From: Adineta vaga
Lineage: Eukaryota > Animalia > Rotifera
Reading direction: 5' to 3'
DNA: 64,000 nt
Assembly: GCA_021613535.1 (NCBI GenBank)
Contig: CP075494.1
Coordinates: 434,001 to 498,000 of the forward strand
The translations under genes were made by a program, and so were the position numbers. The notes under the pieces are model-generated. The model searched no databases, had not been told where the DNA came from, and worked only from the letters and a program-made list of their open reading frames with translations. Positions 5,429 to 62,340 of the stretch are shown here, in pieces; the first letter of the stretch is position 1, and each line of letters begins with the position of its first letter.

Positions 5429-5484
5429 CATGTGGGTGTGGGTATTCCATCTACTCCCACACCCACACCCTCACCCACATCGAG
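5429..5484. repeat. Telomere-repeat palindrome at the truncation point of a ricin-B gene
   Basis: catgtgggtgtgggtattccatctactcccacacccacaccctcacccacatcgag. Confidence 0.9.
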
Positions 5485-6530
5485 TGTTTTACCAGATTCG
5501 ACATTAATCAATTCATATAAATTATCTCCAACTGATTTCAAAAACCATCGTTGTGCAACTGAACGATTGTTTGTACAAAGTTGAACATTAGTACCATCTG
5601 AATGTCCATCATACCAGTAATATCTGATGCTTTATCACTATGTGGATTAAATAATTGAATTGAATCATCATCATATCCATAGATAACCCAAATTTGATTG
5701 AGACCTTTGTGATTTTTAAAAATTTCAACATTGGCACCATCATGTATACCACTATCATGTACATCAAGAACCTTGTTTGAACCGGTATGAATGAATTGAT
5801 GGGTATTACCAAAAATAATATTGACTTCGTCTACATAAAGAAAAAAACGTACATTTTAAAAGTATAGAGAATGAATTTTATTCTCAAGATACTCGTTGCC
5901 AAAAAAAATAGAACTGTAAAACTAGCACTGTATTTACACTCACTTTCTTCTGTTTTACCAGGAGCTGGAAATGTATCGAGATATTCTCCAAACCATACAT
6001 TTGCAATTCCTTTATAAACACCAACACCCATGGTTTTCATCGGTCCCCAACCACCTCTTTGTATCATGATATTATTATGACCAGGACTATTTATCCAACT
6101 TTGAACAGCTTCGTATGGATCAATATTCATTCTTTTTCTCGCATCATGAACATATCCATGTGAATTTTCATAACCAGTATAGTTATAATTACTTATTTCC
6201 GGTGGTTTACTCCACATTAAGTGTCCTTGTGCATGATCACTTGATATATCAGGATTATTTTCAACAAGATCAATAGCATGAGTACGAGCAACAAAAGCAA
6301 GATTAGCAGATGGTTGAAGTGCAGGTAAACCATGATTTTCACGATGATTATTGATAAATTTAAATATTTTCTGTTCTACATCATTCATACCATAAAATGA
6401 TGATCTTCGAATTCGATGAACTATTAATGAAAAGAAAGAAATGATGAATAAGATTTATATTATTCATTTATTTTAGTCAGTTAAATGATAAATAATAATA
6501 TTTACCTTTTTCATTGTTGATTTTCGTCTC
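5478..6530 (-). pseudogene. CAP/SCP domain plus ricin-B lectin repeats; frameshifted and 3'-truncated
   Basis: CAP motifs INNHRENHGLP, ARTHAID, WINSPGHN. Next exon has NKVLDV..DGANV..NQIW and AQRW..LYELINVESGKTLDV. A frameshift lies near 5612 and the reading frame runs into the palindrome. Confidence 0.75.
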
Positions 6531-9679: not shown

Positions 9680-9747
9680 TTGAGGGTGGGTGTGGGTGTG
9701 GGTGGGTGTGTGAGTCAAGCTATACTCTTAACACACCCACACCCAAG
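9680..9747. repeat. Telomere-repeat palindrome (spacer type B)
   Basis: ttgagggtgggtgtgggtgtggg...gtcaagctatactcttaa...cacacccacacccaag. Confidence 0.9.
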
Positions 9748-13369: not shown

Positions 13370-13496
13370 TGAGGGTGTGGGTGGGTGTGGGTAGGTGTGG
13401 GTGAGGGTATGGGTGTGGTGTAGATGAGAGTGAAGAAGATATACCCACGCCCTCAAATTATTGAGTATAGTCTTGAGGGTGTGGGTGTGGGTGTGA
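13370..13496. repeat. Telomere-repeat palindrome (spacer type A) plus an adjacent half element
   Basis: gagggtgtgggtgggtgtggg...gatgagagtgaagaagatatacccacgccctcaa, followed by cttgagggtgtgggtgtgggtgtg at 13472. Confidence 0.9.
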
Positions 13497-14099
13497 AAGT
13501 AAGAATAAAAATATTCTATTTTGATTTGAAAATTACACGTTTCTACACTGTAAAAAAGCGGAGAATAACCAACAATAAAAGCGTTTATGATGGTCTCGTA
13601 AACGTAGAAAAAGATTTATGAGTTTTCAACGTCTAAAGAACTTCGTTTTTATTGTACTTGACGAAGATATAAATCCTTTCTGGATTTATGAAGCACTTCA
13701 AGAAATAGAAAAAGGTTTAATATACGTTACAAATCGTCTAATCTTTATTTTTTCCTACCTATACTATGTTGTTGGATGATGGTAAATTTAGTTTTAATCA
13801 ATGAGAAAATATTTTTATATCATACTGTAACTTTTAAGTAGTAAGTTTTAGTGATATAACCTTATTAGAAATATAGCGTTAGATTAATTCAGTCATACTT
13901 CGAAAGTAAATTGATTCAAACAATGATACTTTTCAAGATAATATATAGACCGCGCGGTTCCTAATAGGGATTTCGCAAATAAAAATACCGTAAAAGATGT
14001 AGATTCTATGATATCATAACTGTAATTGGTATCATATCGTGTTTTTTCGAAATGATGTTGCGAAGTACTGTTATCATTCTTTGTAGAATTAATATTTCA

Positions 14100-17000
14100 A
14101 TGACCGACATATCTTTATCAACATTACCCAATGAATTGTTGTATCATATTTTGAATTATCTTGATGCTCGTTTTATTATTTTAAAGTTACGCCGTGTATC
14201 AAAACAGTTCTACAATATTACCGACAAATATGTTCGATATATGCTCGATGTTAATTCAATGTCACCATCGAATTTGAAAATAATTTCACGGATTATCCCA
14301 GCAGAAAACATAACTTCACTCAAATTTCATGACAGAGAGAGTCAGCGAAGTCAAATTGAATTATTTTTCTCAATTTTCAACATCGATCAATTCGTTCGTT
14401 TACAATCGATTACATTGGGTAAATTTTTTTATTCAAAAGATTATCAACATTTGGATAAATTACCCGTTACCAATATCATCTCACTTCATATCAATTCCGG
14501 TGCCAGATATGATACCCAAGCATTACCTTTTATTTCAAAAGTTTTGACTCAATCAACTCTTAGTCAAGTGGATTTAATCAAATCTGATTATACTATTAAA
14601 AGAATATCCTGGCCAAAATCAAACAGTATCCAACATCTCACTATTCAATCGTGTTCATTCTGTGAATACAATCTTATTCTACAATGTTTACCTTTCTTAC
14701 AAACAATGGTAATGGCAGAATTCAGGCTGGATCAATCTGCAGCTTCAATACAATATCGACAGTTAATATCATTGACAATTGGTGAGAGTGCTTTATCAAT
14801 GGTGGATTTTGAATCACTTCTTTCGTTAACGCCATCGTTGATCAGACTCAAACTAAGATCTTATCGAACGGCTTTGGATTCAATTGTAAATGGATCTGAT
14901 TGGATAGATTTAATTCAAAGAAAATTATCCAATCTTAAAATATTTCAATTTTTCTTTTCTTATTCTTTAAAACAAAGAAACGAGACAAAAGATCTCGATT
15001 TGTTGATAGAACAATTTCGAACTCCATTCTGGTTGCATGAAAAACAATGGATTATTACATGTGACTATTTTCTAAAGGAAAATCTCGTCAATTTCTATAC
15101 AACACCTAAATGTACTATGAATTTCGAAGAGAAAGTACAATCCATTAGAACATGGCAAGTTCCTTCGACTGTACTAAGATTCCATTCAATCATTGATCTG
15201 CTATTGATTGCGAACGACGGTACAGAATTACAAACATCGACGAAATTGAATCTAAACGATGCAAATATTCAAGTGCACGATACAAAGTATCTGGCTGATG
15301 CATTACAAAAGAATACAGTATTTAACAAATCTCTTTATGATAAATAAAAAACTCAGTTCCTTATGTAGATAATCAAATATATTCAATTAGAAAACAATGT
15401 CATCGGAGAAGAAGGGGCACGATACATTGCTGAACTCTTACGAAATAATACAGTAATAAGAATATTTTGATATTTTTCATTTTAAATTCATTTTGAAGAC
15501 ATTGATATCGATTCATTTGGAAGGAAATCGAATTGGAAGCAAAGGAGCTCAGTACTTGGCCGATGGATTACAAAACAATACAGTAAAATTTAGAAAAGAA
15601 ACATTTGACGCTTTTTTGTTTTTCATTAAACAGGTTATTCAGAGTATTTATCTCGGAAAGAATAATATTGGTGATGTTGGCGCATTGCATATAGCTGAAG
15701 GGATCAAGTATATGAAGACACTAGATTTAAGTTACAATCAAATTGGAACTCACGAAGTAAAATATCTGAGTGATGCTTTACAAAACAATCAAGTAAATGG
15801 AATTCGTCATCTTTTTCTACGGGAAAATAAACTTGGTGATCAGGGTGTACGAAGTTTAGTTGAAGGATTAAGAAATAATATGGTAATTTCCTATTCGAAA
15901 TCAAAATATTTCATTTTTTTTCTCTACAAGAAGACACTCATAACACTTCAACTTAGCGACAATCAAATTGGAGTGAAAGGAGCTCAATATCTAAGTGATT
16001 TCTTACGAACTAATATAGAAAGTTTCCATCATTTGTGGTATAGAAATGAATTCAATAACAGAGTTCTTTTCTAGACGATTTCTCATCTTCATCTTGATAA
16101 TAACGATGTTCGAGAAGAAGGAATGCGGTACCTATCGGAAGGTCTAATGAAAAATACAGTATGTTCTCTGATTGACACTACTTCATCAATTTCATTTTGG
16201 AAAATTATAAACACTCACTTCATACTTACTTTAAGTGGAAACAAGATTGGAATTACAGGTGCACAATATTTAATTGATTTGCTGGGAAATAAAAAGGTAA
16301 TGATTCAAGAATTTTTCTTTCGCAAAAATTTGATCGAATGTTTGATGAAATAGAAGCTAATCAAACTTGATCTTAGAGATAATAATCTCGGAGATCTAGG
16401 TGCATTACATGTCAGTGAAGTTCTTCAAGATAATCAGGTAATACAACATTTTGATTGATCTCTCTTCGATTTATCTAATTTCTATAGATATTAAAATCAC
16501 TCAATTTAAGTTCAAATGGAATCAGTGCGACAATTGCTGAACAAATCTATGCATTATTCGAAAAGAATCATGTAATTCTAATATTTATACGATATATCTT
16601 TACATTTTATGTCTACATAGAAACTTACCTGTCTCGATCTAACAGATAATGATGAATGTGATGCTGCTGCTATGAATGCAAATTTTCAAATAGGAAACAA
16701 CAAGGTACTTTACATAGAATTTCTCGAGAAATGTAACTAAATTTTTAAACGTAGAAAATCGTCAATTTAAATCTTCAATCAAAAAATATCGGAGATAAAG
16801 GAGCCAAGTATATTGCTGATGCTTTGAGAAACAATATTGTTCGTGCCATTGATGAGTTTTGTTTTGTATCTATAATGTTAGTTTTAATATAGACACTTCA
16901 AGATCTCGATTTCAAATCAAACAAGATTGGAGAAAAGGGAGCACAAGAACTCTCTTTTGTATTGCGCAACAATAGAGTTTGTTTTTGAATCTATCTTATA

Positions 17001-19546
17001 GTATATCATTTAGCTTTTTCACATAGACTTTGACCAAATTGTATCTGAGTGGTAATGGAAATGTATACTGTAATGTTCTTGAGATGATTTTTCTTCGAGT
17101 CAAAGAACTGAAGGTTAATAAAATTGTTCTTTTTGTATCTGACATATTTTAAAAATGATATCATTGGATAGACTCAAAAATTTATATCATCCAAACAAGA
17201 AAACATTCGTGATTTTGGAGTTCAATATTTGGTCAATGTACTAAATAATAGTCAAGTAATGTTTTAGTCATTTGATCTCATAATTTATTTGAATATTATT
17301 GTAGATTATTAAAGAAATTTCTCTTATCAATGATGGAATAACAGATCAAGGTTTGCAATTGATCACTGATTGGTTAAAAACTAATAAAGTAAATATCAAT
17401 CGATACTTTTACATTTATTTATCTTAATTTTATTTAGTCTCTTCAAAAAATAAATTTAAATGGAAATTACATAAGTGACATAGGAGCAGAATATATAGCT
17501 GATATCCTAAAGAAGAACACAGTAAACATTCTTTTTCATTTCTGTTTTATCGATTAATTTACTTATCATTGATAGACTTTGAAGGTGATAGATTTAGGAC
17601 GGAATAAAATTGAAGATAAGTGTATCGAAAGTCTTGCTGATGCAATGGAAACAAATACAGTATAATTACTTCTTTCTCGTTTTAGTGACTGTCATTTTTA
17701 TTTTCAAGACACTCACAAATCTCAGTCTAGATGGTAATCCAAGTGTTCTATGTGAAGCATTAGAGAAGACTGTGTCTATTCGACATGATAAAGTATAATG
17801 ATAGTCTTTTGTGATCATCTTTTTGTATTTTATTTTATAGAGTTTGGAAATATTCAAGACAGTATCGAAAAATATGGGATATAAAGGAGTCAAATTTATT
17901 AGCTATGGACTACGAGATCATAAGGTAGATCTAACATTTTATTCACTTTTTAATCTATACTCATATGATTATACAGAATCTAACTGAATTATATTTCAAT
18001 GATTGGAAAATTGGAAAACAAGGAATAGAATATATTTCTTCTATTCTAAAAAATAATAAGGTTAAGATTCATCACTTATATTTTAATGAATCTCTTTTGT
18101 TTTTTGTAATATTGAAAACTAGATATTAACTAAACTTAGTCTCGGTAACAATCAGATAGGATGCCAAGGTGCACAATACTTAGCTGAAGTTTTACAACAT
18201 CATCCGGTATGTTTCAGCAACGAATCTACTGTTATTATTTTTTTCGCACGGATATAGACCCTGATTACCCTCGAGCTTCGAAATAATCAAATCAAGGATG
18301 AAGGCACTAAATATTTGGCTGACGCACTGGAATTTAATAGAGTAAGTATTTGTGCTTAATGTTTCTACATATTCATTTGTTTCCTATAGGTGCTTACTCA
18401 ATTAGATTTACAGGAGAATCAAATAAAGAACCAAGGAGCTCAATACTTGGCTCATATCTTAAAAATGAATCGAGTAATTATGAATTATTAGATTTCACTT
18501 TGTTACATTTCAGAATCTTATAGACACTTACTGTAGTATATCTCCAGAAGAATGAGATTGGAGATCAAGGAGCACAGTATTTCCTTGATGCATTGGAAAT
18601 GAATACGGTTTAGTTTGACTTATTATTTGTTTTGTATAATGATGAATTAACATGTCATTTAGACTCTTGAATATCTTGAGCTGCGAAATAATAAGAGTCC
18701 TGTTTGCAACGCTATACCGATTATCCATGAAAGTCTGTTTTGGAAAGTAATTCGTTGATATTATCTGTTATCTTTAGTTATTAATGATTCGTTTCTAGTT
18801 GCAACCCTACTTATCTCTTGATCAGTATAGAATCGGAGACCGTTTAATTAAATATATATAATTTCTTATACCAACATCGAACGTAATCATATATGTCTGT
18901 TGTCTGATATGAAATATATTTGTCGTAACTTTCTTCAGAAAATACAACATGTCAATCTCACTTCAAATAATATAAGCGACATTGGTGCTCAGTACTTAGC
19001 TACAACAATAAAAGAATCAACGGTCATTATTTTGTTTATTTGAATTTCTACAGCTGCGACCATCATTCTAGACAATTATCAGCATGGATCTTCGATCGAA
19101 TGATATTGGAGACGAAGGAGCTTCTTATCTTGTTGATGCATTAAAATATAATCAAGTAACATCAAGTCTAGCCAAATCTCAGAAATATGTTAAAAATTAG
19201 AGTGGTAAATTATAGTCATTGGTTTTTCTTAATGATATTCAACAATTTCATTTAGACACCAATACAGTTCGATTTTAATAGTAAGGGAATTGAAAGAAAG
19301 ATAGCGCGGACTAGAGAATATATATTTTGTTTTTTTACAGATACAATTAAACTTCTATGTCCACGAGGACATCGTCTCAAATTGTGTGATTCTAAACAAC
19401 GTAAAGGGGATAATATTTATCCGTATCCAACAGATGAATTTGGATGTAATAAATGCTTTAAAGGGTCTTGGAGCTCCTCATGGCATTGCTCTTGTACTTC
19501 AGAAGGATTTGACATATGTGAAACATGTGCGAATCGACAGAACTAA
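14100..19546 (+). CDS. F-box plus RNI/NLRC3-like LRR protein with about 25-30 short exons and a C-terminal ZZ-like zinc finger
   Basis: F-box LSTLPNELLYHILNYL. Repeated exons of about 84 nt (TLxxLxLxxNxIGxxGAQYLADAL) between 50-60 nt GT-AG introns. Last exon reads CPRGH..CNKC..WHCSC..FDICETC then stop at 19544-19546. Not every exon was checked for frame. Confidence 0.85.
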
Positions 19547-19620
19547 ATATCTTAACCATTGAAATATTGAAAACAAACGAACTAATAAATCACTAAACAA
19601 TTATTTTCAATGTTATATTT

Positions 19621-19680
19621 TCTTGAGAGTGTGGGTTCGAGAGTGGGTGTATCTTATTCACTCATACCCATACACCCGTA
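19621..19680. repeat. Telomere-repeat palindrome (spacer type A-like)
   Basis: tcttgagagtgtgggt...gtgggtgtatcttattcactcatacccatacacccg. Confidence 0.8.
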
Positions 19681-19862
19681 TCCTTTTATTGTTTCAGAAT
19701 AATTCTCAAGAAATTTCCAAGAAAAAGTCATACTGTTGACAATCTTGAATTACTTTCAAGCACTTATACTTTTTAAAATATCTTTATTATTGTTTTATCG
19801 TTATAATAGTAACGTGTAGAGACGAAACACGACCACGAACAGTTCGTATTTAGTTACTCAAA

Positions 19863-19934
19863 ATGAATGTTGAATCGTTATCTAATGAATTATTAATCGA
19901 ATGTTTCGAATACTTAACAACTAGCGCACTCGAG
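19863..19934 (+). pseudogene. 5' fragment of an F-box gene truncated at a palindrome
   Basis: ATG at 19863 gives MNVESLSNELLIECFEYLTTSALE, then the repeat element begins. Confidence 0.65.
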
Positions 19935-19983
19935 GATGTGGGTGTTGAAAGAGAAGACACACTCACCCACACCCTCAAGATGG
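19929..19983. repeat. Telomere-repeat palindrome
   Basis: ctcgaggatgtgggtgttgaaagagaagacacactcacccacaccctcaagatgg. Confidence 0.85.
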
Positions 19984-20211
19984 TATATAGATTATGCGAA
20001 GAGATGATGCACCACAAATGATCAATTTTTTGATACAGTAATTTATTTTCTATATTCTTTCGTTTATCAATAAATATAAATCATTGCTTCAAAGTAACAG
20101 AACACTTATTATCTACTTCTATGTATAAGTGAAGCATTGAGAAAAGGTAAAAAAATATTATAAGTACACGTGTTTCGTCATTTTTGTCTTTGTTTTCTTT
20201 CAGAAATATCG

Positions 20212-21117
20212 ATGTTGGATGTGTCTAATAGTATTACTCTATTGACAAACTTTTTCATTCATCTACGTCTGAAATTTAGTTTATTTCTCGCACCTATTTA
20301 TCTCTATGGTATTATCATAGGAAATGGAAATATTTTTACATGGGAATTCTGGATTGAATTTAATATTCTTCATATTTTTTTATATGGTGGTGTGTATGCA
20401 TTAAATGATTATTACGATCGAAATGAACAAGGACCGATTGGTGGTCTGAAAAATCCTCCTCCGGTTAAAGGTGATTCACTTTTCTATTTAGCTTGGTTAT
20501 GGAAATTGATTGGATTATCTTTAGCAATCATTTATTCAACGTCTGTACAATTTATTATCGTTTGTTTTCTTGATATTCTTATGTCAGTTGCTTATTCACA
20601 TCCGAAAATTCGTCTGAAAGGTAGTCCACTTGGAAGTATTCTATTAGTCATCTTCTTTCAAGGTTTTCTTACTTATTATTTGGGAATAATTCTCAACAAT
20701 AGTCAACTTAACGGAATATCATTCATTAAATTCTGGTTAGGAGCATTTGTTATCATTTTTCTGATACTTGGCACTTATCCTTTAACTCAAATCTATCAAA
20801 TTGAACAAGATAAATGTCAAGGCGATTCTACAATCGCCATTGTCTTAGGTATTGAAAAGACTTTTCAATTTTCATCTTTATGTCTATTGATCAGTGGTAC
20901 GTTGAATAGTTTATTAATTGGATATTATTATCATTGGTGGGAAAGTGTCATTATTCTCATTGGTTCTTTTTTATTTCAATATAATCTTCGAAAATGGAGA
21001 AATATTTTCTCACAACAAACAGTTTATGAAAATTTCCAGATTTTACATCGATTATTTTCTATTCAAACTATTTTCCCATTTGTCTTTTGTCTTGGGCATT
21101 TATTACATATTCTATAA
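20212..21117 (+). CDS. UbiA-family prenyltransferase, bacterial-like and intronless
   Basis: NDYYDRNE Asp-rich motif, YSHPKIRLK, YPLTQIYQIEQD..GDSTIA; multiple TM helices. Confidence 0.85.
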   Translation: MLDVSNSITLLTNFFIHLRLKFSLFLAPIYLYGIIIGNGNIFTWEFWIEFNILHIFLYGGVYALNDYYDRNEQGPIGGLKNPPPVKGDSLFYLAWLWKLIGLSLAIIYSTSVQFIIVCFLDILMSVAYSHPKIRLKGSPLGSILLVIFFQGFLTYYLGIILNNSQLNGISFIKFWLGAFVIIFLILGTYPLTQIYQIEQDKCQGDSTIAIVLGIEKTFQFSSLCLLISGTLNSLLIGYYYHWWESVIILIGSFLFQYNLRKWRNIFSQQTVYENFQILHRLFSIQTIFPFVFCLGHLLHIL

Positions 21118-21131
21118 GATACCTTTTAATA

Positions 21132-21206
21132 AGAGGGCTAGGGGAGGGTGGGTGTGGGTGTAATTTAAACTGAAGAAGAACGTCCACCCTCATCCACACC
21201 CTTCGA
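21132..21206. repeat. Telomere-repeat palindrome between two convergent genes
   Basis: agagggctaggggagggtgggtgtgggtg...ccaccctcatccacacccttcga. Confidence 0.85.
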
Positions 21207-21296
21207 ATTTTTATTGATAAAAAGACAAATTTCAAATATTAAAAAAAAATCATTAAATTAGTTCAAAATATCGAAGGAATTTTCTTGTTAAATGAT

Positions 21297-24200
21297 TTAA
21301 GTCGGATGAGAATACTTTGCCGTATGTTCTGGATTTTTTGTTGATCGACATTCAGCTCCATATCTACATGGAATTAGACGACGTTTTGCTACACCTGTAC
21401 TACTTGATGTTTTATTTTCTAAAATCAAATTGAAATAGAAATATTTGAATTATAGAAAATCTTTTTGTTTTACTTTTAAATGGAGAAATTTCTTCATTAT
21501 GAAAATATTTTATTCGATGTTCGGTAGTATTATTTCTACAGATCTCTTGATCACGACATGGATAGAGATAATCAGGTTTTCCTGTATGTCGATATTGAGC
21601 ACGATGAACTGGATCAGTAAGTTTCGAACAATGATTATCATTTGAACATTTAGGAACATTATGTTGTTCATGAATAAGATTAGGTTCATTATCCTGATTT
21701 CGACATAATTCATTAAAACGACATGGATGGGAATACTTGTTAGTATGATCTCGTTGATTTAATTGTAAACAATAGATAGAATCTTGACAAGGAGGTAATT
21801 TAACAGAAGCGGCCGATGTTGGATTTGGTTTTTTCGTAATAGATGATGATGGATTATATGCCCTGTTTTCAGGATGTGAATCGTATGTTGTGCGTTTTGG
21901 AGCCGATGTGTGAGCATCATCGGAAACTTGTCTTGGTGAAATATTTCTTTTCGGCGGACCAAATAGTGCAATTCTAATGCGTTGAAAAAAAGATGGCTTC
22001 GGTACATATGATGGATGTTCAACAGGAGCTCTTGGTGGCGGTTTAGAATGTTCAGAAGTTTCTTTACTTGTTCCAGATGCTCCAGCATGATAGCCAATAA
22101 TGGTAGGCATATAATCAAACGGTTCTCGAGTCTGTTTTATTAATTTAGATGTATCAACTGTATAATCTCTATCGAATGTTGGATGTAATTCAGGTATTTC
22201 TTCGTGACGAATAATTAAATTACGTATTGGAACATCTTCAAGTCCACCACTAACGTGAATATAATCTAATCTTGATAAATCTAATTCTGATTTATCAAAT
22301 TGATAAGAAATCTGCTCATGATTATAAATACCATTTGGACCAGCATGTGATAAAGTGACTTGATTATCTTTATAAGTAATTTTCAAACAAAAAGTAAAGA
22401 AATCATCTGTATTACAACCACGATAGAAAACATTTGATTTGGCTTTAAATTGAGCTTTATGCGTATTATTGTAATGTTGAGCAGGATGATCATCATTTAA
22501 ATATGAATATGTTTCATGATAATCGTCAGTCGCTTGAGATGGTTTTTCTGCAACATAACAATTGAGATATCGTAATTTATTTTGATCTTTATCATTTGTT
22601 TGAATTTTTTCATTGGCTAATGTTAACATCATATCACCATTCATTGCTTGCCAATATATATAAGTATATTCAAGATGATTGCCTTTATGAGACTTATCAA
22701 GAGAATATAATTTGTATGATTGAGAAATTGTAATTGGTATAACGATTTGATCATCAAATTTTGTTCCGGCAATAGTTATAACAATACCACGAGAGATTTG
22801 CGGTGCTGCCATTCTTTGTTTAATTTTTGCGAGGTTTTGTTCAAGTATATATTGTCGGTATGGTATACGAGATGCATCTAATTTAACAAGTGAACCTGGT
22901 ACGATTAAACTAAGATCAATTGTATGGTCAGTTAATATCAATGAATCACGAAAAACTGCTCGAGCAGATTTTCGAGCTTCATCACTCAATGATTGATATA
23001 AATTTTTTGGCATATAAACATTCTCAATGTAATCTAAAGGAATTAATTGAGGTAAATGACTTTCGAATACATCATGCGAATCTCGATCGAGACTGGTCCA
23101 TTGTTGAATAATAGTATTTAGATTGATGTCCATCGATTTCTGATTTTTACCATAAAAAGCAATAAGTTCCGTAGCTGCAGCGTATTCATAACGAGGAACG
23201 GAACAATGTAATTTAGCATTATGAAAATCTTCAATGCGTTTATCCTCGCTACCTGGATCTGTCCACCATGAACGTAGTTTATAAACTCTTGCACTAGGAA
23301 AACCAGTGCCAGCTTGAAAAGTAAAATTTGCATCTGGATGAAACATAATTTCTTGCTTGAACGTAATAACAATATCACCATAATAAGTACCAGTATGTGG
23401 TCCTAATATACTAAAAATATGTTGATCTGTTCCTAATTTTGTATCAACATCATATCCTATTCCCATTGGTTTAGATGTTAATTTAATCGATGCTTCAGCT
23501 ATTTTAACTGTCCATTCATGTATCACTTGAATACTTCTGTCATCAAGTGGTGGTTTTAGTTTTCTTTCGATAGTATTAATATTATCGTTATGATCAGCAT
23601 CCGTAGAAGTTATTCCATAAGTTCCTGCTTTTGCAAATTCTGCGTGAACTAACAGTTTAATCAATTCATGAACATTATGTTTTACTTCAGAACTGTTATG
23701 TTCGAGAAGTATTCGACGTATTCGACTATGTTGCAATACAGCTTTAGCAACATGTTTGGGATTTTTTAGTAATTCCATAAATCGACGACTCATGACATGT
23801 CCAAGTACAAGAATTGATTCAAAAATAAGTGGACTACAACGATGTACGGGTTGTAATGCTCGTATCCAATCGAGTATTTCTCGAGGAATCGAAGCTTTTT
23901 TCCATCCGTTTGCGTCCGTATATGCTTTAAGATTTCGTATTATTTCTCCTTGATTATGTGTAAAATTGATCGATGCATTGAAATTTCTCGATGGTGCAAA
24001 GCTTAAATGATCATAATTTTGTCCATGTCGAAACTTTCGTAGATGTTCATCTTTAAGTCGATCATGACATTTGAAACCTGGATGTTTACAAAACAGACGA
24101 ACATCTCGAATTTTGGAATGACTGAAAGATTCCAAATGTTCTTCATCAGTAAGCTTCGTACATTTATCTTCTTGAGAGCAAAGATGACGAGCAATATGAA

Positions 24201-27105
24201 TCGATGTTAAAAAGTGTGAAAGATCTTTTGTTTTGCATTGACGGCCAAATAAACACACGTGTGAATGTTGAAGGCAATGATTTTCGACTTCGGGATCAAG
24301 TTTTTCTCCTGAACGTAGTTGCGTGTATGTCACATATTTTGGACAATTATAAGGTGTAAATGGGCAAGGTATTCGGAACGAATGAATTGTATCTTTTATA
24401 TGTTCTTTATCATGAAATCTAACACAACAATTATCTTGAGGACAGATTGATCTAAAATGACGATTAGTAGTACAATGTTCTTGATCTCCTTTTAAATAGT
24501 GTGGACATTTAAGTCTCAGTGGACAAATTGGAAAGTGACGATGATTGAATAAATGATCTGAATCTGTAATGTGACAATCAATTCCATCTTTACATAGTTG
24601 CGGATGATCATATTCACTTATATGGTTGGGATCATTATTTTGACATTCCCCGCCATGCTTACATTTGATATTATGACGAAATGTAAACATATGTATCTCA
24701 TCATCTATTTGTTTACATGGTGATTCTGTACTTTGATGAGAACATACTGGTGGATGTGAAAATTCGTTACAATGTTGAACATCTTTTATTTCACGACACT
24801 TTATGCTGTGATGACATGGCGATTTGTATAAGATACGTGCTTCACTAAGAGTTAATTGTCCATCTGACGATTTATTAAGTATAGAATATGGTCCAGTAAC
24901 TCCATTAAGTCGTAATACTTTCGGTGGATAAAATGTCTGATTATCTAATATTCTTTGAAATGGAGCAAAATTTCCATTTGGATTCATTTTATTCCCAATA
25001 TTATGATCATCAATTATAGCAAAATAAATTTTATCAAAATATCCAGCATATTGAGTAATAACAGATTTAAAAAGTAGCGCAATATGTTCCGGTGGATTTT
25101 TAAAAGCACCACAACCAAGAGCCGATAAGACCAAACAATCATGATTTTGATGATATCCAATTGCAAAAATGTTTTCAATCTTTTTATGTGTATTTACAGC
25201 AACTTTATCTTCTAACATATTATCTTTAGTCAATTGAGGATCTCGAAATGCAGCTATAGCTAAAGAACAAACATTCGAAAGTGGTTTAGCCATATATGCA
25301 TAACCTTCTTCTTCTTCTCGTTGTCGAAAGACAGTTATACCAGATGTATAAATAGCACCAAACAGTTCCATTGGATAGAAACCTTTATATCCAGTTGGTT
25401 TTCTAATTTGACCTTTCTTATTACAATACAATGGTTCTGATTGATCTTTATCAGCTATTTCTATATCTAAACTTTGATAATAATCAGATCGACGAAAAAG
25501 ATTTTCTTCTTGAGCTCCATCACCTTTTCGATAACCACCACCGGGACTTGTTGCATTGGCCATATTTAATAATAATGGTCGACATCCGCTAACCGCTAAT
25601 TTTTCATAAAGTACCAGACAATCTTCATTAACAACATGAACTGTTGTTGATTCATAAGGAGTTTTAAATTCAGATTCTTTTATAGTTTTTCCATCGAATA
25701 ACTTCGATTGATGATCATAACCGATTGTTTTCAAACGTTGTAAATCTAATTTCACTTCTTTTCCATTAACAACATATTTTTTCTTTCGAAGAACAGCAAT
25801 TGTATTTAACATGACTGTTACTCGTAATAAATGTAAAATACGATCGTATTTAGAATCTCGTTTTCTTTGTCTTTTAGCTTTCTCATATTGTTCCAACCAA
25901 TTTTGAGCATTCCATTTATAATGAAGAATCGGATGCTGATGATTATTGATAATTGTTGTTATATCTGGTGTAGCTTCAAGCATTAATGTTTCGTACCAAT
26001 TTTCGGCATTTATTTCACATTGATCTGGATTAATATCAATAGTATGTGGATTAATACGCATAAGAGCATTATCAACACGAAGCGCGCCAACTGCCAGACA
26101 CCTAGTAAAACTATCTAAACCATCTAGTTCGATAACAAGATGATCATCGTTAAGAGAATGATTAAGAACTTGACCTTCAAATATTTGGTTTTCAATGATA
26201 CGATTGATATCAAACCCACGTGGAAGATCAGATACAATAACTCGATAAGCAAGTTTTGTTTTTTTCGATAAATTTCGTCCATTGAGTACGATAAAACCTT
26301 GACTTTTCCATTTTTTCCATGATTTTGATGCGATTACAACTGCATTACTGGTTATTCTGTCATATTGTACGTGAAAAGCAGTCGATGGAAGTGTATTTTC
26401 ATCAATTTGTGCAGCAACAGCATTCATAAGTTTATCATTATTTGTATTTGAAGGTAATTCTTCAAAAAAATCACAATCAGCACGCGGGTAAACTTGGGCA
26501 ATACTATTTCCTATTTTAAAATCTGGCATATCAGCAGCAGCAACAAGTTCATCAAAATTTGTTAAGAAAATTCGATAAATGTTCGGAAACTGAACAGAAA
26601 CAGGTTCGCAATTATATTCATCAGATGTATTATATGCTTGCATATAATAACGAGATACTTTAGTTCCCGAAGGAAATTTCGTCTTAGTTTGATCTAGTAC
26701 AATATATGAATCAAATTCTAATATATCGACAAATGAAATTGTAATATTCAAATCTTTATCAAAAATCATAGTTTGAACATCATTAAGAAGATATGTTCGA
26801 TCGTCTTCCTTATGTAATTCAACTACAGCAATACCAAGTTTTAAATAACATTCGACATTTTTTATTGTCATACGTCCAATTTTTTCAATACAACATCGAA
26901 GTTTTTCTTGAAGATTATCGTTTGGATAATTCATCGGTAAATCTGGTATATACACTAATATGTCTTGATTAACATTAGTCTTTGGAGGTAGTCCTAGTTT
27001 CTTAGTTGATTTCGTGGATGATTTATGACTCGTTGAAGGTTTCGAAGCATCTGCTCCTTTCGAAGGAGAACTTATTTGAGAGTCACTATTATTATCATTT
27101 GACAT
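21297..27105 (-). CDS. Large multidomain protein: TIGR02452/DUF2263 microbial-type PARG, PBZ-type zinc-finger arrays and a candidate ART-fold domain
   Basis: LNMANATSPGGGYRKGDGAQEENLFRRS and LSALGCGAFKNPP; many C-x5-C-x5/6-H-x5-H units. A terminal exon at 21297-21418 splices in frame and encodes CRYGAECRSTKNPEHTAKYSHPT*. Confidence 0.9.
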
Positions 27106-29711: not shown

Positions 29712-29844
29712 TCTTGAGGGAGTGTGAATGACATAAAGATACAGACATACAACCACTGCGCGTTTTTTAAGTAGCACTCAGGTAGGAACGAAGGGTGAGT
29801 ATAAGTTAAGATTATAGCATGATCCACACCCACATCCTATCGAG
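29712..29844. repeat. Two degenerate telomere-repeat palindromes (the second is spacer type B)
   Basis: tcttgagggagtgtg...; cgaagggtgagtataagttaagattatagcatgatccacacccacatcctatcgag. Confidence 0.7.
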
Positions 29845-30960: not shown

Positions 30961-31870
30961 TAATTGAAATATAATTAGTAATGTGTAAAAAAAAACAACT
31001 AAACTAGATGACAAATCGTCCGTTTATCAAATCATATGAGAAGATGCAGAAGTATTTCCAAGGAAGATTAGAGTTCGACCTGAGGCGTCTTAGATCATTA
31101 TTTATTTCCTTACTTGGTAAGGATGCACACATTCGTTGATCAATCATCGATATTGAATAACAAACAGGATGTACAGAACATCGAGGATATGACGAACACA
31201 GATGTGATAAGGTTCAGAACAAGAATTGTTTGTAAGTTCGCATGAAATCAATTCATTACAAGATTTATTGAGAAAAGCACAAATACCGCTAGTATTATCA
31301 GCATTTTCTACATGAAGACAGCCGCAGGCATCATTTTTTGAGCATTTATCATATGGTGAAAAGTTACGACATATACGAGAGTTTACGCGAATTACCGATA
31401 CACTAAATAAAATACAAAAGATGTCAATTGAGACAAAAACTAACGCTATAAATACAATCTGTTGAATTCATTCGATCAAAAGTTAGAAAGTCAGTTTTAG
31501 AGTTATTACAACAGTAAATCTTTTATATTTTCGAAGTCTTAAAGTTTCAATAAAAATTACCTAACTTCAGATGAAAAGAGGAAAAATTAGAATTACCTGA
31601 ACAGAACGAATACGAAAGAAAGAATTGCCTTTTTAATCATAGTTTAGGTTGAAATGAAAAAAAAAAAGAATCATAATAGCATCGTCTTCGTATAATCAAT
31701 AAACGGATGGCGTTTTTCACATAATTCGACAGTGAAGAGACCCACGATATTAGCTTTCAATAGATGAATGAAAATTCAATGTTACGAGGTGAATAATGTG
31801 AGAAAAAGAAACGGAATTATAAAGTCATTTTGTTCTTTGAAGAACGATTATTACATAGAAGTACCATTAG

Positions 31871-31921: not shown

Positions 31922-31936
31922 ACTAATACAGAACTA

Positions 31937-33179
31937 TTAGGTTGTCAACAAAGTTTTGGCGTTTTTTTCAAAAATTTTATTTTTGTTTTTTCACTTCAAA
32001 AGTACAACTAGTTTTCAGATATATATTTACCATTACTATCTACCACTTGTTGCCAACGCTCTGGCAGAGACATGATCCCGCGCTCGTAGAAGTCCTGGGA
32101 TTTTTCATCAAAGAACTTGACAAGCTCCGTTTTGACATCGCTTTCGTCGTCGAACTTTTTATCACGTAAATCATTCGAAAGAGATCGAAACAAATGGTAG
32201 TCTGTTGGAGCCAAGTCAGGGGAATAAGGTGGATGAGGAATGGTAATCCAGCCGAGCTTCAATAATTTTTCACGGGTCGACTTTGCTACATGTGGTCTAG
32301 CGTTGTCATGTAAAAAATAAACTCGATCCTGCTTTCCCTTGAGCTTTTCTGCAACCCGATCCAATTGTTGACAGTACAGATCAGCAGTGATGGTGTAACC
32401 ATTTGGTAGAACTTCCCAGTGGATAACTCCTTTGATACCCCACCAGACGCTCAGCATCAATTTCTTGGGATGGAGATCAGCCTTCGGTGTTGCTACGCCG
32501 GTTTGACCAGCGCTCAGCCACTGACGTCGACGCGGGTAGTTAACATACAACACCCACTTCTCATCACCAGTAATCAGATTGGATAACCATTGGTAGTTGC
32601 GGTGAGATGTGATTAAATCCATACATGCATCAACTCTCTGTTGCAGCTGATGTGCCGATAATTCATGAGGTATCCATACCCCATATTTCCAGGTCTTGCC
32701 TAATTCGTTCAGATGTTTTTCCACCGTAGTATGAGAGCACCCGAGCTGCTCTGCTAAACACCGTAAAGTCAGTCGAGGATCTTCTTCGATAAGCTGCTTT
32801 AAAAAGTCCACATCCACTTCCATTGGTCTACCAGATCGAGGTAAGTCGTCGAGTTCTAAATCGCCATTCTTGAAATGATTGAACCAACGTTGCGCGGTAC
32901 GAGTGGAGACTAGACCCTGACCCATCGTGCCGCATATGTTGCTGGCTGCTTCCGTTGCTTTGTGCCCCAAACGAAATTCATGAAGTAAAAGCACTCGAAC
33001 CTCTCTATGAGAAAGATTTATCTTTGACTCGACATCAACGTCCATATCAACGATTTTTTTTATCATTCAAAAGACATTCATGTCCTATATATATACCCTT
33101 AGTATGGAAACTTCTAGAACTTTCTTGGTTGTTCTACAAGATTTTAGAAAAAAACGACAGAACTTTGTTGACAACCTAA
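31937..33179 (-). mobile_element. Full-length mariner (DD34D) DNA transposon
   Basis: TIRs TTAGGTTGTCAACAAAGTT.. and ..AACTTTGTTGACAACCTAA; TA on both flanks; about 1.24 kb. Confidence 0.97.
32008..33066 (-). CDS. Mariner transposase, intact
   Basis: WIPHEL, ITGDEKW, HDNARPH, YSPDLAPTDYHLF. Confidence 0.97.
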   Translation of the reverse strand: MIKKIVDMDVDVESKINLSHREVRVLLLHEFRLGHKATEAASNICGTMGQGLVSTRTAQRWFNHFKNGDLELDDLPRSGRPMEVDVDFLKQLIEEDPRLTLRCLAEQLGCSHTTVEKHLNELGKTWKYGVWIPHELSAHQLQQRVDACMDLITSHRNYQWLSNLITGDEKWVLYVNYPRRRQWLSAGQTGVATPKADLHPKKLMLSVWWGIKGVIHWEVLPNGYTITADLYCQQLDRVAEKLKGKQDRVYFLHDNARPHVAKSTREKLLKLGWITIPHPPYSPDLAPTDYHLFRSLSNDLRDKKFDDESDVKTELVKFFDEKSQDFYERGIMSLPERWQQVVDSNGKYISEN

Positions 33180-33350
33180 TATGTGTGTAAAAAGCAAACG
33201 ATGATTCTTTTTCTTCTCAATTCAAATCTGTTTGTTGAATAGATTTTATTTTCAGAAATAAAAACTGCAATAATAATGAAACACAATATAAAGAACGAGT
33301 CGTGCCATGATGATCTTCTTCAATTTCAATAAATATTTAAACCATTTTTT

Positions 33351-42588: not shown

Positions 42589-43620
42589 TCATCGAAAGAT
42601 TGAATCAATTGGTATAGTGGAAAATTCCAAACTCTTAAGGGTAAGGGTGTAGGTGTTAATAGAAGAGACTCTCATTAATAAAATAAAATCTTTTTCAAAT
42701 AAATTAATCGTAAGATCTTCTATTTGAAGAAAAACATTTATAATAATTTGAATCTTTGCTAATATTAATTTTTGAAAAGAAAAATGAAAACATTTAATAG
42801 ATAATTTCATAAGTTGTTTTAATGGATAAAAATGATTTAAATCATTTACAATTGAATTTATATGGTACTTCAAATACTTTACAAAGTGTAAGTTCCGTTG
42901 CTTGTGGAAATTTATCGACAGATTCTTTTATCGTTTTTGTCTTATGAATATAAATATGATGAATTGGATCTTCATTTATCTCATGACGACTTGATCAAAT
43001 ATTTTCTTCTAAAAAACCATTGATGATCTATAAAAAATTTAGAATTAAATTTATCGGTAAGATTTTCAAATATTTGATGTTTATCATTAGAATGAATTCC
43101 TCGAAATGAACATTGAAAATAAAAAAATACGTAAATTAAACATATGATTAGAAATTATTCGTTGATAATTATCAGAATCGATATATTCTCTATCACTATC
43201 AATTGAAATATCATGATTTATGATCAAATATTGAACAGATGTTATTTTATCGATAGTATCATTAATTGATACAATAATTAATGAAGATAAAATGAGTAAA
43301 GAAAATAAATAATCAAGAATTGGTTCGATAGGATTTAAATAAAGTGTTGAAAGTAGCGTCAAGTTTTTCATTATTGGAATAAATAATGAACATAGATTAA
43401 TACAAAGATTTGTTAATCGAAATAATTTAATTCGAGATACATAAGATTTAATAATATATTTGAAATAATGTTCAATGTTTATTTTGGATATGGAGGAAAT
43501 ATTGATTGAAATGGGATAATTTGAATTAAGAAAAAGATTGATATACATGATGATTAAGAAGATAATCAAATATTTCATAGAATAGTTCATTTGAAAGATC
43601 TTCAAATAACGAGATTTTTT
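42589..43620 (-). pseudogene. Degraded F-box/LRR-type gene
   Basis: SLFEDLSNELFYEIFDYL F-box motif followed by frameshifted fragments. Confidence 0.65.
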
Positions 43621-44552: not shown

Positions 44553-44620
44553 GATGAGGAGTGTGGGTGAGGGTCTGAATGGGTGCAAGTCAGTGTCCCT
44601 ATTCACTCACACCCTCACTA
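44553..44620. repeat. Telomere-repeat palindrome (spacer type C)
   Basis: gatgaggagtgtgggtgaggg...gtgcaagtcagtgtccctattcactcacaccctcac. Confidence 0.8.
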
Positions 44621-44803: not shown

Positions 44804-45200
44804 ATGGTGTGGGTCAGAGATGTCCATCGCGGTTAAAAATCTACCGCTGCCACGCCGCTGCCGCGATGGTTTCAGAAGAAAAACTTTGAAACTTGAGTCT
44901 TGCGACTGTGTTGGACCGGAAATACTGCTAATAATCTATCATATTCATTTAGTCTCAAATTGTTACATTTGTAAACACTAAAATTCTGATAAAACTATGC
45001 TGTTTTCCAATGTTTCTCTAAAAATTGCTGCCGCTGCCGCGTCGATGCCGCGGTGATGTTTCCGAAAATCTGCCGTTGCCGCTGCCGCCGTCGCGTCGCG
45101 GCAGTGGTAGCGCCGCGATGGACATCTCTGATGTGGGTGTGGATTAAGATTATAGCCTGACCCACACGCACACTCTCACCCACATCCACATCCTCACATG
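44804..45200. repeat. Telomere-repeat palindrome (spacer type B) interrupted by a MITE
   Basis: Removing 44815-45130 and one TSD restores ggtgtgggtgtggattaagattatagcctgacccacacgcacactctcaccc. Confidence 0.8.
44815..45130. mobile_element. hAT-type MITE, 316 bp
   Basis: Perfect 18-bp TIR CAGAGATGTCCATCGCGG; 8-bp TSD gtgtgggt/atgtgggt; GCCGCT subterminal repeats. Confidence 0.88.
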
Positions 45201-57962: not shown

Positions 57963-58400
57963 ATGAACGTAATTTTTCTTAGCTGCTTTTTATTAATAAT
58001 GAAGATCCGTGGAATAAAAAAAGCTCTGTTCTTTTATTAAAATACATTTTCTAATTGAATTTATGACAAGAAAAGAATAGTTCAGAAGCTCTAAATATTC
58101 AGTAGCAAGAATAGTAGCATCCATATTTTCAATGCATGCATAAAAAAATGATAAGACTAGAGAGATGCTTTATTAACCCAATTTTACCACATATGGAACA
58201 AAATGCAATAAAATAAAAAGATAGAAAATAGTTTTTAAATAGAAGATAATGTGTTTGATTATCACCTTTAAGCAAAAGTTATATGATTTCAAAAGCTCCT
58301 ATTTATTATGCATATTTCAATAAAGAATAAAAACTTTTTTTTTCTGTCCCTATAGTTTTTAAGGTACTAATTCGATTTATCTCTTATCTTTATCATGCAT

Positions 58401-58455
58401 TTTGAGGGTGTGGGTATATCTTCTTCACTCTTATCTACGCCACACTCACATCCTG
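58401..58455. repeat. Telomere-repeat palindrome (spacer type A)
   Basis: tttgagggtgtgggtatatcttcttcactcttatctacgccacactcacatcc. Confidence 0.88.
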
Positions 58456-59007
58456 CCATTTAATTAGTAAGAGTATTAATTCGTTTTTTTATTCACATAC
58501 TTTCTCACAATGATAAATATGATTCAAACGTACTCTAACGATATTCCACGATCAAAACGACATTTTCAAGGTTAAAAAAACTTCTGAACTCAGTCGGAAA
58601 TGAAATAGTGATAAGATGCATTGACTTGTTCATAAAATAAAATATTTCATGATTTGTTTTTCAACATCGAGATGAGAAATAAGAAGGGAAAGTCTCTTGC
58701 TTTGTTATGTTCGAACATTTCCGTTTAGTAAAAGTAATTCATCTGTTTCGAACGTTCATTGATAATCAATCTAACAAAGATTTATTTATTCTTCTTATTT
58801 TTTGCCTTTCTTTCCGTTTTTTATGTTTCATTATGCATTCAGAATGCTAGATGTATTTTTCCCTTTTCAGATCGTCATTGTCTGGAGGAATAGAATTTTG
58901 TCAATGTCTATCAATACAATTCAACGCCATTGAAAGTCACACAAGCAAACCGTCCACCAATAACTAATATCTTTCCATTTAATAATCTAGATGCTGTATG
59001 ATAACCT

Positions 59008-59072
59008 CTGTGGGTGTGGGTGAGGGTGTAAATCAAACATACGAGAATACTAACTGATACATACACCCTCAA
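59008..59072. repeat. Telomere-repeat palindrome
   Basis: tgtgggtgtgggtgagggtgta...tacatacaccctcaa. Confidence 0.85.
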
Positions 59073-59366
59073 TATGCTCCTTTAGTAACCATTTCAGAAG
59101 CAAAAGAAGAACATCTATGGCATCCGGGCGCGCCTCTCTTAAAAATTCACAATTATTTCTCCCTTCTTTCGAGCTACTGGGTTTTATCCCACTATGGGTA
59201 TGAGGACGTAGTGAATATGAAGGAAGAAGTCCACGGTGCAAATGAAAACGAGAGTTGGTAAGAAGAAGAAGAAGGAAACACCTAATGTGCGTCTCTAAGC
59301 AAATATAATTTTCTTTTCATGTGTAGTTTTCCTTACTGGGTGAGGAAACTATAGAGTTACAAGAGT

Positions 59367-59885: not shown

Positions 59886-60052
59886 AACATTTCGATTCTC
59901 TAAACTATTTCACACATTGATCATTTACTAGTTTGCTTAATCAAGAATAAATTATTTATATCATTGATCAAAATGCATTTTAAAACGAGCTTCAATACCA
60001 AAGTAAAATCTGTTTAAAACTGTTCTAAGAGAGATGCTCGCTTTTTATGAAA

Positions 60053-60110
60053 TCTTGAGGGTGTGGGTGTGGGTATATCTTCTTCACTCTCATCCACACC
60101 CACACCCAAG
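60053..60110. repeat. Telomere-repeat palindrome (spacer type A)
   Basis: tcttgagggtgtgggtgtgggtatatcttcttcactctcatccacacccacacccaag. Confidence 0.92.
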
Positions 60111-62203: not shown

Positions 62204-62340
62204 TCGAAAGGGTGTGGGTGAGGGTGTGGGTGTGGGTGGTTGTGGTTGAGGCTGTGGAAGGATGCAAGCCAGTATCTCTATTCACCCAAACCCTCACCCA
62301 CGCCTGCACCTTCATCCACACCCACACCCACACTCTAAAC
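62204..62340. repeat. Longest telomere-repeat palindrome (spacer type C)
   Basis: tcgaaagggtgtgggtgagggtgtgggtgtggg...gatgcaagccagtatctctattcacc...ccacacccacacccacactc. Confidence 0.92.

What the first reader, a model, noticed from the sequence alone, without database searches (positions are those of the whole stretch)
19621..19983. A 250-bp mini-cassette holds only the start of an F-box gene
Between two hairpins lies a short upstream region and MNVESLSNELLIECFEYLTTSALE, an F-box N-terminus that stops at CTCGA-GGATGTGGG. This is the same CTCGA junction as in the ricin gene. An unrelated UbiA unit follows. It is a second independent case of an element marking a breakpoint.
Basis: partly seen in the sequence, partly recalled or inferred. 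Interest (0 to 1): 0.72.

Follow-up and report, generated by a model that had tools for sequence, protein, structure and literature searches.

The report
Telomere-repeat scar splitting an F-box gene
In a bdelloid rotifer, the first 23 codons of an F-box-like gene stop at a short head-to-head pair of the animal's telomere repeats, which is likely the scar of a DNA break whose two ends were capped and rejoined after most of the gene was lost, rather than the edge of a mobile mini-cassette.

Summary
The sequence is as described: two hairpins 254 bp apart enclose an upstream region and 23 F-box-like codons, and a haplotype about 4% divergent has the same arrangement. The hairpins are not cassette sites. 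They are head-to-head bdelloid telomere repeats (TGTGGG), one of about 28 such sites in the window, always G-arm first (11 of 11 pairs), with no target-site duplication. F-box similarity ends 0-15 nt before the arm, so the breakpoint claim holds. The rest is weaker. A 260-bp gap is what random spacing gives. TCGA is a general arm-end class (7 of 40 arms) and is host-coded in the lectin gene. UbiA is probably not an unrelated neighbour: an Adineta ricciae model of its orthologue carries the end of a rotifer LRR-like protein just upstream, and the window shows a decayed match to that end directly after the hairpin (weak alone, p about 0.02-0.14). Best reading: one F-box gene lost its body, both ends received telomere repeats, and they were rejoined. 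The enzyme is unproven; one survey found no TERT in A. vaga, and some loops recur at unrelated sites.

The parts
19621..19677 (.). Hairpin 1: degenerate head-to-head telomere-repeat unit with TCTTGA leader, about 75 nt past the stop of the upstream LRR gene
   Evidence: Sequence; weak fold z -1.25; below the arm caller's threshold; about 138 nt longer in the X12 haplotype (table 8)
19678..19862 (+). Upstream region of the F-box-like gene (promoter and 5' UTR inferred, not tested)
   Evidence: AT-rich, no frame with a Pfam hit; shared with the other haplotype
19863..19931 (+). F-box-like start, codons 1-23, pseudogene stub
   Evidence: Top non-training hit (E 0.013 among 1925 segments) of a profile from the window's three F-box starts; tblastn E 0.003 to the F-box-like start at 43603; distant paralogue contigs align here and go on as F-box; 2 of 2 listed allele changes alter the residue
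19932..19981 (.). Hairpin 2: G-rich arm 19932-19945, 11-nt loop, C-rich arm 19957-19977, and AGAT (the ATCT leader on the other strand)
   Evidence: fold z -2.19; bottom strand reads ATCT-TGAGGG-TGTGGG-TGAGTG-TG-TCTTC, as in metagenome loci L004, L006, L008
19982..20041 (+). Likely decayed last 20 codons of an F-box/LRR-family gene (G-I-stop-I-M-R-R-D ... Q-stop), with AATAAA at 20069
   Evidence: Matches Y-V-M-R-R at the end of the N-terminal extension of A. ricciae model P0004; score reached by 78 of 576 222-nt tiles and 11 of 640 45-nt tiles, so weak alone
20212..21117 (+). Intact UbiA-family prenyltransferase, 301 aa, own ATG; probable 5' UTR intron 20147-20203 (inferred)
   Evidence: PF01040; 81% to A. 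ricciae, 65% to an A. vaga paralogue, about 40-46% to named bacterial proteins
21148..21202 (.). Hairpin 3: head-to-head telomere-repeat unit after the UbiA stop, TCGA at its right end
   Evidence: about 31 nt longer in the X12 haplotype

Best explanation
The 23 F-box-like codons end at a head-to-head pair of telomere repeats that is likely a repair scar inside one F-box gene: a break removed most of the gene, each free 3' end likely received two to four telomere repeats from an RNA-templated enzyme, and the capped ends were likely joined. Shown: repeat identity, polarity, position of the junction, age older than the haplotype split, no target-site duplication. Inferred: that stub and tail come from one gene, that the gene was already upstream of UbiA, and that telomerase (or an Athena-type reverse transcriptase) wrote the arms. 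The '250-bp cassette' is then only the space between two independent scars.
For: Telomere repeat TGTGGG in A. vaga (passages of PMC8494291 and PMC7943196). 11 G-then-C pairs and 0 C-then-G among 13 close arm pairs, the polarity of two capped ends joined. Longest direct repeat shared by the flanks is 3-6 nt, like random. Position 23 is aliphatic and 24 hydrophobic in 4 of 4 relatives seen (three window F-box starts; X15 loose end read by hand); the stub has L23 then E24, the first codon made by the arm. A. ricciae model P0004 has 64 residues of a rotifer-wide, LRR-like family in front of the UbiA orthologue, and the window's match to the end of it starts 9 nt after the hairpin, same strand, followed by a stop and AATAAA. 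In the lectin gene the repeats begin in register on the host's own TGTG. Telomeric repeats at deletion breakpoints in A. vaga lines are reported (PMC13564844 passages).
Against: The tail match is four residues: 78 of 576 222-nt tiles score as well, and the full 62-residue extension gives 268 of 3000 shuffles as good. No family member carrying both ends was retrieved, so the link of that C-terminus to this N-terminus rests on recall; Atlas names F-box/LRR only at 0.76-0.77, lead level. P0004 is an automatic, partial gene model. No close intact paralogue exists in the four runs laid, so the left break is bounded only to 15 nt. One survey failed to find TERT in A. vaga (PMC5405514 passage). Loops recur between units with unrelated flanks, which independent random joining does not predict. 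The X12 contig leaves the window at 19376, where the window has no hairpin.
Confidence: 0.58

Rival explanations
1. Same capping and joining, but of two unrelated pieces: the stub came from an F-box gene elsewhere and was fused to the UbiA block (translocation). This is nearest the first reader's picture.
For: The tail match is weak; in the lectin and Kelch junctions the far side is unrelated DNA; subtelomeric regions are reported to be rearrangement-prone (PMC8494291 passages).
Against: It needs the start and the likely end of one gene family to meet by chance in order and on one strand.
Confidence: 0.2
2. The hairpin was copied in as a ready-made unit: a small foldback element with telomere-like arms, or a capped end that annealed to an existing unit and copied its loop.
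For: Three loop families with unrelated flanks in 64 kb (13404/58403/60056; 9686/29824/45132; 44561/62209); 12 of 1690 arm-pair comparisons score 11 or more against 1.4 expected, not all independent. Hairpin 2 shares AGAGAAGAC with metagenome locus L004.
Against: No target-site duplication in 11 pairs; arms vary in length between haplotypes; hairpin 2's loop is not among the 22 best loop matches; the gene does not resume at the next codon.
Confidence: 0.16
3. An integron-like cassette array: hairpins are recombination sites and the 250-bp piece is a mobile cassette.
For: About 28 sites space unrelated, partly bacterial-type genes; TCGA and TCTTGA are enriched at outer ends (7 and 5 of 40, expected 1.5 and 0.3).
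Against: No recombinase hit in the 30 ORFs and 211 of 345 segments scanned; genes lie on both strands; three genes are cut inside coding DNA; same order in a haplotype 4.7% divergent; gap size random.
Confidence: 0.04
4. The stub is a chance ORF or an assembly error.
For: No Pfam F-box hit for the stub alone; no database hit.
Against: Profile E 0.013; paralogue contigs align to it; spanned by contigs of separate runs.
Confidence: 0.02

Closest known systems
Short interstitial telomeric sequences and TERC-ITS of vertebrates, type C locus of Xenopus (PMC8537989, passages)
   Same: Telomere repeats at a repair site, often with deletion and added bases; head-to-head arms preceded by a piece lying next to the template in the telomerase RNA.
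   Different: There head-to-head units are rare (3 of 41 loci); here every close opposite-arm pair is head-to-head and sites occur every 2 kb or so. The bdelloid RNA is not in hand, so the leader cannot be matched to it.
Neotelomeres at deletion breakpoints in A. vaga lines (PMC13564844, passages)
   Same: Same repeat, same animal group, repeats at deletion ends.
Athena/Terminon retroelements of bdelloids (PMC6431247, PMC5537684, passages)
   Same: Carry (ACACCC)n or (TCACCC)n tails, prime at ends or breaks, are cut by short telomere runs.
   Different: Head-to-tail arrays with a hammerhead ribozyme and an RT gene; neither was found here.
Microhomology deletions in subtelomeric Hebe copies (PMC2861651, passages)
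   Same: Internal deletions from break repair in the same kind of region.
   Different: No inserted telomere repeats at those junctions in the passages seen.
Integron attC cassettes (listing only)
   Same: Hairpins between single genes.
   Different: No integrase found, both strands used, genes cut internally, arms are telomere repeats.

Membership tests
F-box domain (PF00646/PF12937) | Reaches Pfam's score | tested here: not met
   No F-box hit for the 20, 23 or 42-residue piece; only half a domain is present
F-box domain (PF00646/PF12937) | Similarity to F-box starts of this genome | tested here: met
   E 0.013 with a three-sequence profile (two Pfam-positive members, one Pfam-negative); not listed when only the two Pfam-positive members were used; paralogue contigs
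Short ITS / TERC-ITS repair scar | Made of the host's telomere repeat | tested here: met
Short ITS / TERC-ITS repair scar | Head-to-head polarity of two capped ends | tested here: met
   11 G-C, 0 C-G
Short ITS / TERC-ITS repair scar | Orthologous empty site shows insertion with deletion | tested here: inconclusive
   Only a protein model of the A. ricciae locus was seen
Short ITS / TERC-ITS repair scar | Flank matches the telomerase RNA; telomerase present | not testable with these tools
   No whole genome held; no bdelloid telomerase RNA in searches; TERT not found in one survey
MITE | Target-site duplication | tested here: not met
   11 pairs
MITE | Uniform size and conserved interior | tested here: inconclusive
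   Loops 9-28 nt, mostly unlike, but three small families
Integron cassette array | Tyrosine recombinase nearby | tested here: not met
   window only, 241 frames scanned
Integron cassette array | Whole genes in one orientation between sites | tested here: not met
Athena/Terminon | Hammerhead ribozyme beside the repeats and an RT gene | tested here: not met
   Rfam 19400-21400 gave two chance-level hits only; no RT domain in the frames scanned
Helitron gene capture | 5' TC, 3' hairpin then CTRR, A-T target | not tested
   Considered only; symmetric telomere arms do not suggest it

The most novel reading that the evidence does not exclude
Bdelloids have a routine break-repair route in which an RNA-templated enzyme caps both ends and the caps are joined, deleting and shuffling subtelomeric genes, and the scars spell out the enzyme's template: the leader ATCT and trailer TCTTC around the repeats predict an RNA containing GAAGACACCCACACCCUCAAGAU (the reverse complement of locus L008, 1184-1206). 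This locus would be an intragenic example with an intact orthologue in a sister species.
Probability: 0.3. Interest if true: 0.8.

Novelty: new variant of a known kind. Interest (0 to 1): 0.5.

Why it matters
How bdelloids mend shattered chromosomes, and why their subtelomeres are mosaics of foreign and broken genes, are open questions. A scar inside a gene whose intact form likely survives in a sister species lets one measure what was lost and what was added at a single break. If the leader and trailer are RNA-copied, they give a search key for the bdelloid telomerase RNA, which my searches did not find described, in an animal where even TERT was reported missing. The stub itself is probably a dead pseudogene.

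Tried and rejected
Protein searches with the stub found nothing: 4 candidates, none at E 10 or less; 0 hits in 1.84 billion representatives. Search with the P0004 extension returned only itself among 34 candidates. Exact look-up of 6 window frames: 0 of 6 in the collection. UbiA relatives in viral and prokaryote contigs: none. Hairpin pattern in viral contigs: 0. Single-arm patterns gave 25 viral and 6 prokaryote loci with no hairpin at the match; all 31 were dropped as chance. A stub-UbiA fusion by splicing was considered: the best-looking donor (19983) is out of phase with the acceptor at 20203, and UbiA has its own ATG like its relatives. A C-terminal pattern shaped partly by recall hit the tail but also 5 other places, so it is not evidence. 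TCTT/AAGA in loops: 7 of 11 in the window (P 0.001-0.004, motif chosen after looking) but 2 of 8 in metagenome loci; not replicated. No RNA holder listed; expression is untested. Run X12 has little cover over much of 14000-19000; not used as evidence. Two key papers were not held (PMC1890498, PMC5850863). Notebook entry 2 misquotes the X15 continuation; the hand reading is F-N-G-A-D-L-F-S-W.

Full report
Setting. The window is 30% G+C with intron-containing LRR, Kelch, F-box and lectin genes mixed with bacterial-type genes. The UbiA protein's nearest named relatives are from Adineta ricciae (81%) and Adineta vaga (65%, a paralogue), and an identical protein is recorded on a 16.9-Mb contig. I infer an Adineta-type bdelloid rotifer. 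No whole genome was held, so genome-wide counts could not be made.

The observation. Hairpin 1 (19621-19677), a 185-nt upstream region, ATG at 19863, 23 codons and hairpin 2 (19932-19981) are present. The frame reads through the hairpin to 52 residues. Run X12 has one 3705-nt contig with the same order of stub, hairpin and UbiA, 73 differences in 1547 nt, and longer versions of hairpins 1 and 3 (about 138 and 31 nt more). Over 19672-19957 it differs at 9 places, of which 6 are listed; the 2 listed in the stub both change the residue. So the junction is real, older than the haplotype split, and the stub looks unconstrained, on two changes only.

Is it an F-box start? Pfam does not call it. A profile from the window's three F-box starts ranks it first among non-training segments (E 0.013, 1925 segments); with only the two Pfam-positive members it is not listed. 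Two distant paralogue contigs align to it and leave at 19895 and 19915, going on, read by hand, as L-D-L-F-E-Y-I-N-S-V and F-N-G-A-D-L-F-S-W. No close intact paralogue appeared in the 4 runs laid. Codons 19-22 vary among relatives; codon 23 fits and codon 24, made by the arm, does not. The break is therefore within 15 nt of the arm, probably at it.

What the hairpins are. TGTGGG is the A. vaga telomere repeat (passages of PMC8494291, and PMC7943196). An arm caller found 40 arms in the window and none in 10 shuffles; of 13 close pairs 11 are G-arm then C-arm, 0 the reverse, 2 same-type. Hairpin 1 fell below that caller's threshold and was added by hand for the spacing test. Nine metagenome loci hold the same unit (the pattern itself imposes the polarity there). 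Flanks share no duplication above background. Outer ends carry TCTTGA (5 of 40, expected 0.3) or TCGA (7 of 40, expected 1.5); in the metagenome loci 7 and 1 of 22. In the lectin gene CTCGATGTG encodes the gene's own L-D-V and the repeats continue from its TGTG, so there TCGA is host DNA; at the stub it may be a variant of the TTGA leader. The shared CTCGA thus need not have one origin. A trailer TCTTC follows the arm directly in 3 of 20 metagenome arms (expected 0.04) and in 1 of 40 window arms, which is hairpin 2 (P 0.06); within 6 nt, 5 of 40, two of them copies of one family. The motif was chosen after looking. Among 27 gaps between sites, 3 are 260 nt or less, against 3.0 expected, so the small unit needs no special cause.

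What follows the hairpin. The A. ricciae model P0004 has 64 extra residues before the UbiA start. They belong to rotifer-dominated clusters (scores 0.93-0.95, unnamed); the nearest named clusters are LRR and F-box proteins at 0.76-0.77, leads only. They end in Y-V-M-R-R. Directly after hairpin 2 the window reads G-I-stop-I-M-R-R-D and reaches a stop 12 codons later, with AATAAA 28 nt beyond. Alone this is weak: 78 of 576 222-nt tiles and 11 of 640 45-nt tiles score as well. From recall, not from a call, that C-terminus belongs to the large bdelloid F-box family whose start the stub resembles, and the distance to the stop fits. I put about 70% on the tail being real. If so, similarity does resume after the element, but at the far end of the gene, which makes hairpin 2 a deletion scar and UbiA an old neighbour.

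Mechanism. Most likely a break in the F-box gene, loss of its body, addition of a few repeats to each 3' end, and joining through an 11-nt loop. Repeat identity, polarity, position and age are shown; loss from one gene and the enzyme are inferred. Telomere repeats at deletion breakpoints in A. vaga lines are reported (PMC13564844, passages), and vertebrate scars of this layout are ascribed to two telomerase events (PMC8537989, passages). Against telomerase as such, one survey found no TERT in A. vaga (PMC5405514, passage); Athena-type reverse transcriptases use the same repeats (PMC6431247, PMC5537684, passages). Against independent origin of every unit, three loop families recur with unrelated flanks, so some units are copied. 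The X12 contig also parts from the window at 19376, where no hairpin lies: not every divergence point is marked.

Novelty. Short telomere stretches in bdelloid subtelomere-like DNA are known (PMC2861651, PMC8494291, passages). Ten full-text searches listed no paper on head-to-head units as a class in rotifers. I read passages only and no supplements; figure S10 of PMC8494291, figure S25 of PMC13564844 and two papers that were not held may bear on this. PMC3846280 (passages) and PMC12133305 (one reference-list hit) added nothing. Earlier notes of this scan reach the same general reading in other bdelloid windows; I noted the telomere idea before seeing them and do not count them as support.

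Verdict. A real breakpoint at a telomere-repeat scar, not a mini-cassette; likely an internal deletion of one F-box gene. New variant of a known kind, interest 0.5.

Noticed in passing
window 13404-13457, 58400-58454, 60052-60108; 9686-9745, 29790-29838, 45132-45197; 44561-44618, 62209-62333: Three families of hairpins share their loop sequence although their flanks are unrelated, so some units are copied.
   Followed up: partly
window 5431-6388 (-): CAP plus ricin-B-type lectin gene cut in a lectin repeat; telomere repeats start in register on the host's TGTG; unrelated DNA beyond.
   Followed up: partly
window 58914-59075 (-): A Kelch remnant begins at the outer end of a telomere arm, another junction inside a gene.
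   Followed up: partly
window 42633-43615 (-): A second decayed F-box-like gene runs into a telomere arm at about 42660.
   Followed up: partly
window 19376: The X12 contig joins the window here after 260 unlike letters, inside the last exon region of the LRR gene and 245 nt from the nearest hairpin.
   Followed up: no
window 13500-13900: A multi-copy repeat lies beside the long telomere-repeat tract at 13370-13495; many contigs align here.
   Followed up: no
window 31927-33189: Mariner-type transposon with 52-nt inverted repeats and an open 352-aa transposase, inserted just beside a hairpin at 31870.
   Followed up: no
window 21412-27105 (-): Uninterrupted 1897-aa frame with a microbial-type PARG domain; multi-copy in the runs laid.
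   Followed up: no
L008 1184-1206: Minimal arm with both leader and trailer around two and a half repeats, a candidate single pass over an RNA template.
   Followed up: partly
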